64,000 nt of DNA from Escherichia coli (GTDB lineage Bacteria; Pseudomonadota; Gammaproteobacteria; Enterobacterales; Enterobacteriaceae): the NCBI RefSeq assembly GCF_017348835.2, contig NZ_CP071375.1; one strand, given 5' to 3'. Positions 30,001-33,000 of this stretch are shown here, in pieces. Each line of letters opens with the position of its first letter. Positions within the stretch are counted from its first letter, which is position 1. The position numbers are program-made.

Positions 30001-33000
30001 ATTCGCTGCCAACATGCCGAACAGACTGCACAAAATGCGCCATTAAACCTGCAAACGCTGGAAGCTATCAGCGAATCTGTCCTGCAAGATGTCGCCCCGC
30101 GTTCTTCATGGCGGGCCAGTAAAGAGTTTCGTCTGCATCTCATCCAGACGATGACCAAAAAAGTGATTAGCGAAGCCGTCGCCGCGGCGGGGGGAAAATT
30201 GCAATGAATCACAGCGAAACAATTACCATCGAATGCACCATTAACGGGATGCCTTTTCAGCTTCATGCCGCACCAGGCACGCCGCTCTCGGAATTACTCC
30301 GCGAACAAGGACTGCTAAGTGTCAAACAAGGGTGCTGCGTGGGTGAATGTGGTGCCTGTACGGTGCTGGTCGACGGCACAGCAATAGACAGTTGCTTATA
30401 CCTTGCCGCCTGGGCTGAAGGAAAAGAGATCCGCACGCTTGAAGGTGAAGCGAAAGGCGGAAAACTTTCTCATGTTCAGCAGGCTTATGCGAAATCCGGC
30501 GCAGTGCAGTGCGGGTTTTGTACGCCTGGCCTGATTATGGCTACCACGGCAATGCTGGCGAAACCACGCGAGAAGCCATTAACCATTACGGAAATTCGTC
30601 GCGGACTGGCGGGAAATCTTTGTCGCTGCACGGGGTATCAGATGATTGTAAATACAGTTCTGGATTGCGAGAAAACGAAGTAAAAGGATATCCGGCCTGA
30701 ATTCAGGCCGGGTTCGCTGAGGTTATGTGTTTAACAACTCATATTTCTTAATCTTGCGATAGAGCGTAGCAATGCCAATGCCCAGTTCATCAGCAACTTG
30801 CTTCTTGCTGTTATGACGTGAAAGCGCCTCGCGGATCATTTGCTTTTCCATCTCCTCCAGCGCCGTGCCGCCCGCATCATCGAGTGACAGGTGCGCCTCA
30901 GTGACCTCTGTTACATCACTTTGCTCCGTTGTGCCATTATTCAGCAGATTTGGTGGCAATAGCGTGCTGTCGATAACTTCACCTGAAGGAACAACGTTAA
31001 CCAGATATTCCATCAAATTGCTTAACTCGCGCAGGTTTCCGGGCCAACGATGCTTACGCAATATTTCGACGACATCGGGAGCAATACCAGGATAAACCGA
31101 TCCCAGACGACGGGTATGCAGATGTAAAAAGTAATGCACCAGTAGTTCAATATCTTCCTGACGTTCACGCAGCGGTGGCAGAGTTATCGGGATAACATTA
31201 AGTCGGTAGAAGAGATCTTCGCGGAATTTACCTTCGGCAATGAACTGGGCCAAATTCTGGTTAGTTGCAGAAATGATGCGAATGTCGACTTGTATTGGGC
31301 TACTGGCACCAATCGGCAGAATTTCACGTGCCTCAATAGCGCGCAGTAATTTAGCCTGCAACATTAATGGCATATCACCTATTTCATCGAGAAACAGCGT
31401 GCCCGTATTCGCCGCCTGAATCAACCCTGTTTTACCGTTGGCAGAAGCGCCAGTAAATGCGCCTTTAACATAACCGAACAGTTCGCTCTCCAGAAGCTGC
31501 TCCGGAATCGCGGCACAGTTGATAGCAATAAAGGGTTTATTCCGTCTTCCGCTCAACTTATGGATTGCACGGGCGACAACTTCTTTACCCGTGCCGCTTT
31601 CACCAACCACCATAACGCTGGATGGGCTGGGTGCAATACGGCTAATGAGTCGTTTTAATTGCCGCATAACACGGCACTCGCCAACCAATTGTTCAATATG
31701 CGGTTCATCAGGTGCATTTGCTACAGAAAAACTGGTATGCGATTGGTGAAACGCCATTAAAAATAATTGTCGGCCCTGAATGTTATGCAATTGACCAATG
31801 ATTAATTCACTTTTATCGTCCCACGAAACAATATGCTGCATATGTCCATGGGTAAAATTACTCTCAAATGTTAATGGTCTGAAACGGATAGGTTTCCCAA
31901 TAATATTATTTTGCACAACACCAAGTGTTTTTAAGGCAGTCTGATTAACAAACTGAACCCGATTTTCGTCATCAACAACTAATACACCCTGATCCATATT
32001 ATCGATCATGGTCGCGAATATTTTACTGATGTTATCTCCTGGCCCCTGATCCTCCAGAAGTTTCGAAACAAAAATGGTGGATATATGGCGAACATAATCA
32101 GAAAATTCGCGTAAATTATCACTGATATGCTCTTGTTGCTCGTGGGTAACGGCAATCAAACTTATCACCCCAACACAACGATCCTGTAAAATGACAGGCG
32201 TACCCAGAAATGCTTTTTCGCGGCAATTTTCTTTACTATCGCAACCTTCGCAAAGGGGATCGAAGCGAGACTGTGTCACAACTTTTTCAGTTTTCGTTTC
32301 CAGGACGTGGCGGAGCAGGCGTGAGTTGCCGCTCAACTGGCGACCAAGAAACTTCCCATACGCGCCCGTTCCGGCGACGCGACACAAGTTTTCATCAACG
32401 ATCTCAACCTCAAGCTGCAAAACGCTGGCAAGCATTCTGGCAAAACGCTGAATTGTCGGTTGAATTTGCATCAATACTGACTGCGTAGTAGCAAGCTCCA
32501 TAGCTTTACCTTCCAGACTTACTTAAAAGTCGATCATTGAAGACGTTGATGGTTCACAGATCATGATGATATTAACTCAGGCGAAATTGGCTTTGATAAA
32601 AACATAAGATTTTTATCACTTTCTAATGAAATTATGGAAGAGATATCACATTTCTATATCAATATGAGAATTACGGCGGTGAGTTTATCAAACTGACGAG
32701 GGATAGCCTGCCCCTTTATCTTATTTCTGATACTTAGCAGCAAATAAATAACGCAATAAAAAAAGCCAAACGTTTTCGTATTTTACAAACAACCGGAAGC
32801 TGGCATCAATTTGTGATCAACCCCACACATTATCCGTCAAATTAGTCTTTTGCAGCCCCGTGGATAATTCTGGCACACTTATTGTTAGTCCCAGGTATAG
32901 CTGTGAAAACCACCAATCACTTTGGCAAGTCACAGTGAAATAAACCACTTTGCCTGTCATTCCACTACCGGGACTTTATGATGAAAACTGTTAATGAGCT

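What the first reader, a model, noticed from the sequence alone, without database searches (positions are those of the whole stretch)
32871..32886. Candidate sigma54 promoter for ygeW with an imperfect -12 element
TGGCAC-ACTTA-TTGT lies ~95 bp upstream of ygeW, next to the gene for a sigma54 activator. The -24 hexamer is perfect, but the normally invariant GC at -12 is GT, so the assignment is tentative.
Basis: seen in the sequence. Interest (0 to 1): 0.3.

Follow-up and report, generated by a model that had tools for sequence, protein, structure and literature searches.

The report
Known sigma-54 promoter of ygeW
The motif is real and is an already published binding site for the alternative sigma factor sigma-54 upstream of the E. 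coli uric-acid-degradation operon ygeWXY; its odd -12 element is shared by every related bacterium examined, so it looks like a conserved trait, not a defect.

Summary
It sits 92 nt upstream of the first ygeW ATG and 95 nt upstream of the second, next to the divergent activator gene ygeV.

The site is not new. This exact 17-mer is sigma-54 ChIP-seq peak OS30 in Bonocora et al. 2015. It overlaps a ChIP-chip region, lies under an RpoN-holoenzyme gSELEX peak (Shimada 2021), and was predicted by Francke et al. 2011.

My own tests agree:
- A leave-one-out weight matrix ranks it the top hit in the 64 kb window, with 0.0016 expected by chance in the spacer.
- All 19 gamma- and beta-proteobacterial ygeW orthologues carry one such motif at the same place. 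57 more distant loci essentially do not.

The non-canonical -12 base is conserved as T, A or G and is never C in 20 species. The confirmed pspA and pspG promoters also read TTGT.

Footprinting of the spacer reveals two further conserved elements. One is a palindrome, TTATCA-N3-TGATAA, which I take to be the YgeV enhancer. The other is a CRP box at a fixed position, -77.5.

What is still missing is a mapped transcript start and proof that ygeW expression depends on rpoN and ygeV.

Verdict: an ordinary, already known feature. The conserved avoidance of C at -12 is a small new observation.

The parts
32870..32886 (+). Sigma-54 core promoter CTGGCACACTTATTGTT. GG is at -25/-24 (32872-32873) and GT at -13/-12 (32884-32885).
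   Evidence: Identical to ChIP-seq site OS30. Conserved in 19 orthologous loci. The core is unchanged in every E. coli strain I aligned; one haplotype differs only at consensus-tolerated positions.
32897..32897 (+). Predicted transcription start, 12 nt downstream of the -12 base. This equals motif centre +19, the Bonocora convention. The leader is 81 nt to the first ATG.
   Evidence: Inferred from sigma-54 promoter geometry and the footnote to the Bonocora table. It has not been mapped experimentally. The leader has no significant RNA structure (z -0.30) and no Rfam match.
32812..32827 (.). CRP-like box TGTGATCAACCCCACA, centred at -77.5 from the predicted start.
   Evidence: One mismatch to TGTGA-N6-TCACA. 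A box sits at -76.5 to -78.5 in E. coli and 13 of the 19 orthologues, and at -67.5 in 3 more. It forms a conserved block in the spacer alignment. PMC12507026 refers to a 'native Crp-binding site' in this spacer and shows glucose repression of urate degradation.
32630..32699 (.). Proposed YgeV enhancer (UAS), core block. It contains ATCACA (32645-32650), the palindrome ATATCAATATGAGAA (32656-32670) and TTATCAAACTGACGA (32685-32699), about -267 to -198 from the predicted start.
   Evidence: This is the strongest conserved block in the 11-species spacer alignment. The palindrome TTATCAN3TGATAA with up to 2 mismatches occurs 19 times in 15 spacers against 0.7 +/- 0.9 simulated. The same palindrome lies upstream of the xdhA, ygfK and ygfT sigma-54 sites. 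Binding by YgeV is inferred, not shown.
32563..32602 (.). Distal TGATA boxes at 32567-32571 and 32594-32598. They are possible further YgeV sites or ygeV autoregulatory sites, 66-97 nt upstream of the ygeV start codon.
   Evidence: Conserved columns ATGATA and TTGATAAAGA. Positions -303 and -276 recur across species.
30723..32501 (-). ygeV, the divergently encoded sigma-54 enhancer-binding protein (PAS, AAA+ with GAFTGA, HTH_8).
   Evidence: It is divergent from and adjacent to ygeW in 14 of the orthologous loci.
32978..36691 (+). Likely transcription unit ygeW, ygeX (dpaL) and ygeY. A terminator-like hairpin follows ygeY at 36709-36728.
   Evidence: Lamoureux 2023 treats ygeWXY as an operon.

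Best explanation
This is the sigma-54 (RpoN) promoter of the ygeWXY operon, part of the E. coli anaerobic uric-acid/purine degradation cluster.

Proposed mechanism:
1. RNA polymerase carrying sigma-54 binds the -24 TGGCAC and the -12 TTGT elements as a closed complex. The complex is fairly weak.
2. The closed complex cannot open the DNA without help.
3. YgeV, encoded divergently next door, binds TTATCA-N3-TGATAA palindromes about 200-330 bp upstream and reaches the polymerase by DNA looping.
4. YgeV uses ATP hydrolysis to open the promoter. Transcription starts near 32897.
5. A conserved CRP box at -77.5 lies between the enhancer and the core promoter. It probably supplies the DNA bend that IHF provides at many sigma-54 promoters, which would make the operon sensitive to glucose.

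Shown: the sequence features, their statistical significance, their conservation, and (from the literature) sigma-54 occupancy in vivo and in vitro.

Inferred: productive transcription, the exact start site, YgeV as the protein that binds the palindromes, and the role of CRP.
For: Published occupancy:
- ChIP-seq OS30 has the identical 17-mer.
- It overlaps a ChIP-chip region.
- An RpoN gSELEX peak of 53-55% lies in the ygeV/ygeW spacer.
- Francke 2011 predicted it.

Scoring:
- With the 41-site matrix it is the top hit in the window: 15.9 bits, 0.0016 expected in the spacer.
- With the 134-site matrix it ranks third, behind the known xdhA and ygfK sites.

Conservation:
- A single strong motif lies 85-250 nt upstream of ygeW in 19 of 19 gamma/beta-proteobacterial loci, although the flanks are unalignable.
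- In 57 non-proteobacterial ygeW loci the best hit is 8.7 bits or less, with one exception.
- 4861 E. coli genomes contain an exact 28-base word that must span motif positions 32870-32885. The one variant haplotype I saw, CTGGCATAGTTATTGTT, changes only consensus-tolerated positions.

Activator:
- YgeV has Sigma54_activat, GAFTGA and HTH_8.
- It is divergent from ygeW in 14 loci.

Enhancer:
- Palindrome enrichment is 19 observed against 0.7 simulated.
- The palindrome is shared by all four sigma-54 promoters of the cluster.

Co-regulation: ygeW, ygeX and ygeY belong to the YgeV iModulon together with xdhABC, ygfK, ssnA and ygfT.

No competing promoter: no credible sigma-70 promoter lies upstream of ygeW on the + strand (2 weak hits against 1.9 expected).

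Precedent for the -12 base: pspA and pspG have TTGT at -12 and are marked as confirmed promoters.
Against: - ChIP occupancy is low (FAT 3).
- I found no transcription-start mapping and no rpoN- or ygeV-dependent expression data for ygeW.
- Bonocora et al. themselves say 'binding site', not 'promoter', because binding need not lead to transcription.
- The C at -12 is reported as conserved in 96% of sigma-54 promoters (PMC4551910) and is absent here.
- RpoE holoenzyme also gives a weak gSELEX peak (4.5-fold, cut-off 4.0) in the same spacer, and the gSELEX table marks ygeW as a gene that RegulonDB lists as an RpoE target.
- The UAS and CRP roles rest on conservation only. The palindrome is AT-rich and loosely resembles Fur-box hexamers.
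Confidence: 0.85

Rival explanations
1. The site binds sigma-54 holoenzyme but is not a productive promoter. ygeW would instead be transcribed from a CRP-dependent sigma-70 promoter or a sigma-E promoter elsewhere in the spacer, and the sigma-54 site would be silent or mildly repressive.
For: - ChIP occupancy is low (FAT 3).
- Bonocora et al. caution that binding sites need not be promoters.
- Schaefer 2015 reports sigma-54 sites that repress sigma-70 promoters.
- There is a weak RpoE gSELEX peak, and RegulonDB lists ygeW as an RpoE target.
- I read a sigma-E-like GGAAGCT-N15-TCAAC at 32795-32821 in the sequence.
- A CRP box is present.
Against: - The sigma-70 scan finds nothing above chance on the + strand upstream of ygeW.
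- The sigma-E-like sequence is not conserved in the spacer alignment, whereas the -24/-12 motif is conserved in 19 of 19 orthologues with an adjacent activator gene and a conserved enhancer block.
- A silent site would not be held in place across orders of bacteria.
Confidence: 0.1
2. The match is a chance resemblance to the sigma-54 consensus in an AT-rich spacer.
For: Consensus counting alone is not significant: 1 observed against 2.8 expected for up to 1 mismatch, and 0.36 expected for TGGCACN5TTGY.
Against: - The weight-matrix score is the top of 128,000 positions, with 0.0016 expected in the spacer.
- There is experimental occupancy in three independent data sets.
- The motif is conserved in 19 orthologous loci with diverged flanks, and is absent from 56 of 57 distant loci.
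Confidence: 0.01
3. The promoter is a true sigma-54 promoter but is driven by an activator other than YgeV. Cross-talk from another E. coli enhancer-binding protein would do the work, and the TGATAA palindromes would bind a different protein (for example Fur or a nucleoid protein).
For: - No YgeV footprint or ChIP data exist.
- The palindrome is AT-rich and contains GATAAT-like hexamers.
- The mBio 2022 paper links YgeV (IsrR) to LEE virulence genes, not purine genes.
Against: - ygeV is adjacent to and divergent from ygeW in 14 loci.
- The same palindrome lies 130-215 bp upstream of all four sigma-54 sites of the cluster.
- The iModulon groups these operons.
- ygeV is reported to be needed for urate consumption (Iwadate and Kato 2019, as cited in bioRxiv 2022.07.24.501321).
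Confidence: 0.04

Closest known systems
E. coli sigma-54 ChIP-seq site OS30 (ygeW), Bonocora et al. 2015, PLoS Genet (PMC4591121)
   Same: It is the same object. The 17-mer CTGGCACACTTATTGTT, its strand, the downstream gene and the 80-nt distance all match.
   Different: There is no difference in substance. The window carries one extra C in the leader (about 32910) compared with other E. coli genomes.
pspA and pspG sigma-54 promoters of E. coli (PspF-dependent)
   Same: They have a good TGGCAC/TGGCAT -24 element and a -12 element reading TTGT instead of TTGC. Both are bound in ChIP-seq and marked as confirmed promoters.
   Different: They use a different activator (PspF) and respond to a different signal. 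From my own knowledge, psp promoters use IHF. Here no IHF consensus is found and a CRP box occupies the intervening position.
xdhA, ygfK and ygfT sigma-54 promoters in the same cluster (OS29, OS31, OS32)
   Same: They belong to the same gene cluster and the same YgeV iModulon. They share the upstream palindrome TTATCAN3TGATAA and have CRP-like boxes in the same helical phase (-67.5 and -97.5).
   Different: They keep GC at -12 but have degenerate -24 regions (GGCGT, GGTGC, TGCCC). ygeW is the reverse: a perfect -24 and a non-canonical -12.
prpBCDE promoter with divergent prpR (sigma-54 plus CRP). This comparison rests on my own knowledge of Lee, Newman and Keasling 2005, J Bacteriol; I did not check it here.
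   Same: A divergent bEBP gene, a sigma-54 promoter for a catabolic operon, and a CRP site in the spacer that confers catabolite control.
   Different: The pathway and activator differ. prpB has a canonical TTGCT -12 (OS01).
DioR sigma-54 regulon of Clostridiales (Nie et al. 2019, PMC6615313)
   Same: A sigma-54 enhancer-binding protein controls ygeW-ygfK-ssnA-ygeY, dpaL and related operons. One Lachnospiraceae locus (L058) has a canonical sigma-54 motif 117 nt upstream of ygeW.
   Different: The phylum, activator family and operon order differ. Most Firmicutes loci in my set show no motif directly upstream of ygeW, because ygeW is not the first gene there.

Membership tests
Sigma-54 (RpoN) -24/-12 promoter | A GG doublet inside a TGGCAC-like -24 element | tested here: met
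   TGGCAC at 32871-32876, a perfect match.
Sigma-54 (RpoN) -24/-12 promoter | A -12 element TTGC(W) whose G lies exactly 10 bp after the second G of GG | tested here: met
   TTG is at 32882-32884. The spacing matches all 135 ChIP-seq motifs, which share the same 17-mer register.
Sigma-54 (RpoN) -24/-12 promoter | C at -12 (the GC dinucleotide) | tested here: not met
   The base at 32885 is T. C is reported in 96% of sigma-54 promoters (PMC4551910). However, 11 of 135 bound E. coli sites lack GC, including the confirmed pspA and pspG promoters. The feature is typical but not obligatory.
Sigma-54 (RpoN) -24/-12 promoter | A weight-matrix score within the range of experimentally bound sites and above background | tested here: met
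   The leave-one-out score is 13.2 bits, the 30th percentile of 134 bound sites. With the promoter-only matrix it is 15.9 bits, the top of the window, with 0.43 expected per 64 kb.
Sigma-54 (RpoN) -24/-12 promoter | Occupancy by sigma-54 holoenzyme | not testable with these tools
   Literature only: ChIP-seq FAT 3, overlap with a ChIP-chip region, and gSELEX at 53-55%.
Sigma-54 (RpoN) -24/-12 promoter | A cognate enhancer-binding protein with a GAFTGA loop is available | tested here: met
   YgeV has Sigma54_activat at E 7.8e-71, AAA_lid_14, HTH_8 and the sequence GAFTGA. It is adjacent to and divergent from ygeW.
Sigma-54 (RpoN) -24/-12 promoter | Upstream activator (enhancer) sites | tested here: inconclusive
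   A conserved, highly enriched palindrome TTATCAN3TGATAA lies about 200-240 bp upstream. Which protein binds it has not been shown.
Sigma-54 (RpoN) -24/-12 promoter | An rpoN- and activator-dependent transcript starting about 12 nt after the -12 element | not testable with these tools
   I found no published start-site or dependence data for ygeW. Reitzer and Schneider 2001 and Iwadate and Kato 2019 are not held in the library.
Sigma-54 (RpoN) -24/-12 promoter | Conservation at the orthologous position | tested here: met
   19 of 19 proteobacterial loci have the motif. Bonocora S5 Table gives Citrobacter 9.46, Yokenella 9.84 and Raoultella 10.55.
CRP binding site | TGTGA-N6-TCACA core | tested here: met
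   TGTGATCAACCCCACA at 32812-32827, one mismatch.
CRP binding site | Conserved presence and position | tested here: met
   The box is centred at -76.5 to -78.5 in 14 species (E. coli plus 13 orthologues) and at -67.5 in 3 more. ygfK has a perfect site at -97.5, in the same helical phase.
CRP binding site | CRP binding and cAMP/glucose dependence of the promoter | not testable with these tools
   PMC12507026 refers to a 'native Crp-binding site' in this spacer and shows glucose repression of urate degradation, relieved by replacing the promoter. The evidence is indirect.
Sigma-70 promoter for ygeW | -35 and -10 hexamers with 16-18 nt spacing upstream of the gene, + strand | tested here: not met
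   The only hit is a 9/12 match that overlaps the start codon. Counts equal chance.
Sigma-E promoter for ygeW | GGAACTT, about 16 nt, then TCAAA | tested here: inconclusive
   GGAAGCT-N15-TCAAC at 32795-32821, read by eye. It is not conserved. There is a weak RpoE gSELEX peak.

The most novel reading that the evidence does not exclude
ygeW promoters may form a conserved subclass of sigma-54 promoters that is selected to avoid C at -12. The base is T, A or G in all 20 species sampled, spanning Enterobacterales, Aeromonadales, Vibrionales, Oceanospirillales and a Rhodocyclaceae genome. It is never the C reported for 96% of sigma-54 promoters. No E. coli genome matched the 'repaired' TTGC form of the commonest 40-mer.

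This weakened -12 'lock' is paired with a CRP box held at a fixed helical phase (-77.5, -67.5 or -97.5) in place of an IHF site.

Together the two features would make closed-complex formation, and possibly basal firing, depend on CRP-cAMP. That would wire catabolite repression directly into an enhancer-dependent promoter.
Probability: 0.3. Interest if true: 0.45.

Novelty: already known. Interest (0 to 1): 0.15.

Why it matters
ygeWXY belongs to the gut-bacterial reductive uric-acid degradation cluster, which is now being engineered as an anti-gout probiotic (PMC12507026). Its native control is therefore of practical interest.

The promoter itself is already catalogued. What this re-examination adds:
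- A candidate YgeV operator, TTATCA-N3-TGATAA, shared by all four sigma-54 promoters of the cluster.
- A phase-conserved CRP box.
- The observation that the non-canonical -12 base is conserved as 'anything but C'.

If that last point reflects selection, ygeW would be a natural test case for the proposed role of the -12 C in keeping sigma-54 promoters silent.

Tried and rejected
- Simple consensus counting has too little power. I replaced it with weight-matrix scans.
- A sigma-70 scan of the spacer found nothing above chance.
- An IHF consensus search (WATCAANNNNTTR, up to 1 mismatch) found no site in 32502-32977.
- The leader RNA shows no Rfam match at E up to 1 and no unusual folding (z -0.30). 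I therefore dropped the riboswitch or attenuator idea.
- Recurrent 17-mers appeared upstream of ygeW in Lachnospiraceae (CAGGCRCATGCRCCGAA) and Bacteroidales (TTGGNCCGGGNAATGAA). They looked like regulatory motifs and have no Rfam hit. In context they are the conserved 3' coding region of the upstream gene, which I read as a ygeY-type M20 peptidase (GFGPG...AHAPNE). They are not promoters.
- I tried to read Reitzer and Schneider 2001, Iwadate and Kato 2019, and Xi et al. 2000 for primary data on ygeV and ygeW regulation. None is held in the library. The statement that Reitzer and Schneider identified a ygeWXY sigma-54 promoter is therefore second-hand, from Lamoureux 2023.
- The UPEC rpoN preprint has no ygeW data.
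- I ran no further search on enlarging the -12 census, because it would not change the verdict on the finding.
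Full report
**1. What the window is**

The window is E. coli chromosome. The 901 bases around the finding match 5,181 of 5,426 complete E. 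coli genomes at 95% identity or more. They are annotated there as ygeV ('sigma-54 interaction domain-containing protein') and ygeW ('knotted carbamoyltransferase'). The wider neighbourhood is xdhABC, ygeV, then ygeW, dpaL(ygeX), ygeY, hyuA, arcC and onward to ygfK, ssnA, ygfM and xdhD. In the window ygeV is 30723-32501 (-) and ygeW is 32978-34168 (+), separated by a 476-nt spacer.

**2. Check of the observation**

- TGGCACACTTATTGTT is at 32871-32886 (+).
- The -24 hexamer is perfect and the spacing is canonical. The -12 element reads TTGT, so the -12 dinucleotide is GT and not GC.
- The motif end lies 92 nt before the first ATG and 95 nt before the second (the RefSeq start).
- The adjacent gene is a genuine enhancer-binding protein. 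It has Sigma54_activat (E 7.8e-71), an AAA lid, HTH_8, a PAS domain, and the GAFTGA loop is visible in the translation.

**3. Is it more than chance?**

Consensus counting is uninformative: 1 hit against 2.8 expected at up to 1 mismatch. I therefore transcribed the 135 ChIP-seq motifs of Bonocora et al. 2015 and built leave-one-out weight matrices.

| Matrix | Score of the site | Rank in the window |
|---|---|---|
| 134 sites | 13.2 bits, 30th percentile of bound sites | Third of about 128,000 positions, behind the known xdhA (26949) and ygfK (42687) sites |
| 41 intergenic-sense sites | 15.9 bits | First |

For the 41-site matrix, first-order Markov simulations give 0.43 hits of that score per 64 kb on both strands. 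That is 0.0016 in the spacer on the + strand. No other position in the spacer, on either strand, scores above 8.9 bits in the 134-site scan.

**4. It is already published**

- Bonocora et al. (PLoS Genet 2015, PMC4591121) Table 1 lists OS30: motif CTGGCACACTTATTGTT, + strand, downstream gene b2870 ygeW, distance 80, FAT 3, PSSM 9.837. The EcoCyc column is blank, meaning the site was not in EcoCyc at that time.
- Their S3 Table shows that a ChIP-chip region (3003550-3004653) overlaps it.
- Their S5 Table gives PSSM scores at the homologous position of 9.46 (Citrobacter), 9.84 (Yokenella) and 10.55 (Raoultella).
- Shimada et al. 2021 (PMC8743547) report an RpoN-holoenzyme gSELEX peak of 53-55% in the ygeV/ygeW spacer.
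- Francke et al. 2011 (PMC3162934) named b2870 (ygeW) among newly predicted sigma-54 regulon members.
- Lamoureux et al. 2023 (PMC10602906) place ygeW, ygeX and ygeY in a 'YgeV iModulon' with xdhABC, ygfK, ssnA, ygfM, xdhD and ygfT. They cite Reitzer and Schneider 2001 for sigma-54 promoters upstream of xdhABC and ygeWXY. I could not read that review.

**5. The -12 base**

In the Bonocora set, 124 of 135 sites have GC. Four have GT: pspA, pspG, an antisense site near dcuD, and ygeW itself. pspA and pspG are marked as experimentally confirmed promoters. GT therefore has precedent.

I fetched ygeW orthologous loci from species-representative genomes. I scanned 600 nt upstream of ygeW in the 19 gamma- and beta-proteobacterial loci:
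- Every locus has exactly one strong hit: 13.4-16.8 bits, and 9.1 bits in Endozoicomonas.
- The hit lies 85-250 nt upstream of the start codon.
- The flanking sequence is unalignable between clades.

In all of them the base after TTG is not C:

| Base at -12 | Taxa |
|---|---|
| T | E. coli, Pluralibacter, two Enterobacter spp., Kosakonia, Serratia silvae, both Cedecea, Edwardsiella, Hafnia |
| A | Aeromonas, the Rhodocyclaceae MAG, Serratia oryzae, Erwinia, one Photobacterium |
| G | the other Photobacterium, Endozoicomonas |

As a negative control, the best hit in the 400 nt upstream of ygeW in 57 non-proteobacterial loci is 8.7 bits or less, apart from one Lachnospiraceae locus (13.2 bits, canonical TTGCA).

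Within E. coli:
- 4,861 genomes contain an exact 28-base word that must span motif positions 32870-32885.
- No genome matches the same 40-mer with T changed to C. That search would miss a C variant on a haplotype that also carries flanking SNPs.
- The only variant haplotype I saw, CTGGCATAGTTATTGTT in strains N3 and 181.1, changes consensus-tolerated positions and keeps TTGTT.

The C at -12 is reported as conserved in 96% of sigma-54 promoters and as important for holding basal transcription in check (PMC4551910, citing Barrios 1999 and Wang, Guo and Gralla 1999). Its complete absence here is therefore notable. The statistics are modest. Treating the 20 sequences as about 10 independent lineages, neutrality with 25% C gives P of about 0.06. 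The usual sigma-54 constraint is rejected outright. I rate real selection against C as plausible but unproven.

**6. Anatomy of the spacer**

ygeV is the divergent neighbour of ygeW in 14 of the orthologous loci, and lies upstream in the same orientation in Aeromonas popoffii. An 11-species alignment of the spacer shows three conserved islands in otherwise diverged sequence:
- (a) Two TGATA boxes. In E. coli these are at 32567-32571 and 32594-32598.
- (b) A block reading ATCACA...TATCAAWATGATAAT, about 16 nt, then TTATCA. In E. coli it spans 32645-32699.
- (c) A CRP-like box.

Evidence on the palindrome:
- The hexamer TGATAA/TTATCA occurs 46 times in 15 spacers against 6.3 +/- 2.5 simulated.
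- The palindrome TTATCAN3TGATAA, with up to 2 mismatches, occurs 19 times against 0.7 +/- 0.9 simulated.
- It lies 176-228 nt upstream of the core motif in 14 of 15 species, Photobacterium included.
- In the window it occurs 13 times against 4.4 expected, and none of 100 shuffles reached 13.
- Five of those 13 lie upstream of the four sigma-54 sites of the cluster: xdhA 26817, ygeW 32656 and 32685, ygfK 42505 (a perfect match) and ygfT 57875.
- The ygfT copy is the identical 15-mer to the ygeW copy at 32656.

I infer that this palindrome is the YgeV operator. That inference is untested.

**7. The CRP box**

TGTGATCAACCCCACA (32812-32827) has one mismatch to the core consensus. It is centred at -77.5 from the predicted start.
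- A box with 2 mismatches or fewer sits at -76.5 to -78.5 in E. coli and 13 orthologues, and at -67.5 in three others.
- ygfK has a perfect TGTGAGTTCATTCACA at -97.5.
- Weaker boxes sit at -67.5 or -68.5 upstream of xdhA, ygfT and ygfK.
- All of these positions are whole helical turns apart.
- A hit with 2 mismatches or fewer is expected about 0.06 times per 145-nt search region.
- No IHF consensus is present in the spacer.

PMC12507026 describes 'the native Crp-binding site' in this spacer. It shows that glucose represses urate degradation in the wild type but not after the promoter is replaced. My reading is that CRP acts as the architectural or recruiting factor between the enhancer and the core promoter. 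This is inference. The prpBCDE analogy is from memory.

**8. Rivals**

- Sigma-70: no credible promoter precedes ygeW.
- Sigma-E: RpoE holoenzyme gives a weak gSELEX signal (4.5-fold) in the same spacer, and the table marks ygeW as a gene that RegulonDB lists as an RpoE target. A GGAAGCT-N15-TCAAC can be read at 32795-32821, but it is not conserved.
- A silent or repressive sigma-54 site: this cannot be excluded without transcript data. It fits poorly with conservation across bacterial orders of the motif, the activator gene and the enhancer.
- The leader has no Rfam match and no unusual structure.

**9. Verdict**

The 'imperfect' -12 element is a conserved property and not grounds for doubt. 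The feature is already known, so interest is low.

The residual new points are the conserved non-C base at -12, the candidate YgeV palindrome shared by four promoters, and the phase-locked CRP box. All three need experiments. Transcript mapping and rpoN/ygeV dependence for ygeW remain the missing proof of function.

Noticed in passing
window 32910-32911: The window reads GAAAACCACC where every E. coli genome I aligned reads GAAAACACC. This is one extra C in the ygeW leader. None of 5,175 genomes reaches 100% identity over the 81-mer (best 80/81). The window is otherwise closest to O157:H7. The extra C may be a strain-specific insertion or an error in an older assembly.
   Followed up: partly
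window 26949-26965 (+), 42687-42703 (+), 57694-57710 (-), 41356-41372 (-): The other published sigma-54 sites of the cluster are all present in the window: xdhA OS29, ygfK OS31, ygfT OS32 and the intragenic yqeC site IS34. The three intergenic sites keep GC at -12 but have degenerate -24 elements, the opposite pattern to ygeW.
   Followed up: partly
window 26817-26831, 42505-42519, 57875-57889: The palindrome TTATCAN3TGATAA lies 130-215 bp upstream of the xdhA, ygfK (perfect match) and ygfT sigma-54 sites. The ygfT copy (ATATCAATATGAGAA) is identical to the ygeW copy at 32656-32670. This is a candidate common YgeV operator.
   Followed up: partly
window 42609-42624: A perfect CRP core, TGTGAGTTCATTCACA, lies upstream of ygfK at -97.5 from its predicted start. 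That is two helical turns further out than the ygeW CRP box. Weaker CRP-like boxes sit at -67.5 or -68.5 at xdhA, ygfK and ygfT.
   Followed up: partly
L085 and L086 (E. coli strains N3 and 181.1), about locus position 413-429: A natural E. coli haplotype of the core promoter, CTGGCATAGTTATTGTT. TGGCAC becomes TGGCAT and there is one spacer change. From the -24 GG onward it equals the Hafnia sequence (TTGGCATAGTTATTGTT). The -12 TTGTT is kept.
   Followed up: no
window 32594-32618: An E. coli-specific inverted repeat, TGATAAAAA-N7-TTTTTATCA, lies about 95-115 nt upstream of the ygeV start codon. Its right arm is absent from the other genera in the alignment. It may be a site for ygeV autoregulation.
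   Followed up: no
window 32780-32809 (-): The only sigma-70-like promoter on the ygeV strand (TTGATG-18-TAAAAT) directly abuts the CRP box. CRP might therefore also act on ygeV transcription. The CRP centre would be about -46 from that putative start, which is not a classical class II position.
   Followed up: no
window 34175-34196 and 36709-36728: There is a strong GC hairpin immediately after the ygeW stop codon (GGGCCGATCAGCTGGTCGGCCC, weak T tract). A terminator-like hairpin with TTTTT follows ygeY. This suggests possible attenuation after ygeW and an operon end after ygeY.
   Followed up: no
window 32795-32821: A sigma-E-like sequence, GGAAGCT-N15-TCAAC, overlaps the CRP box. The RpoE gSELEX study reports a weak peak (4.5-fold) in this spacer and marks ygeW as a gene that RegulonDB lists as an RpoE target. 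The sequence is not conserved in other genera.
   Followed up: partly
L058 about 2884-2900: One Lachnospiraceae locus has a canonical sigma-54-type motif, CAGGCATTCCATTTGCA, 117 nt upstream of ygeW. This is consistent with the sigma-54 'DioR' regulon described for Clostridiales.
   Followed up: no
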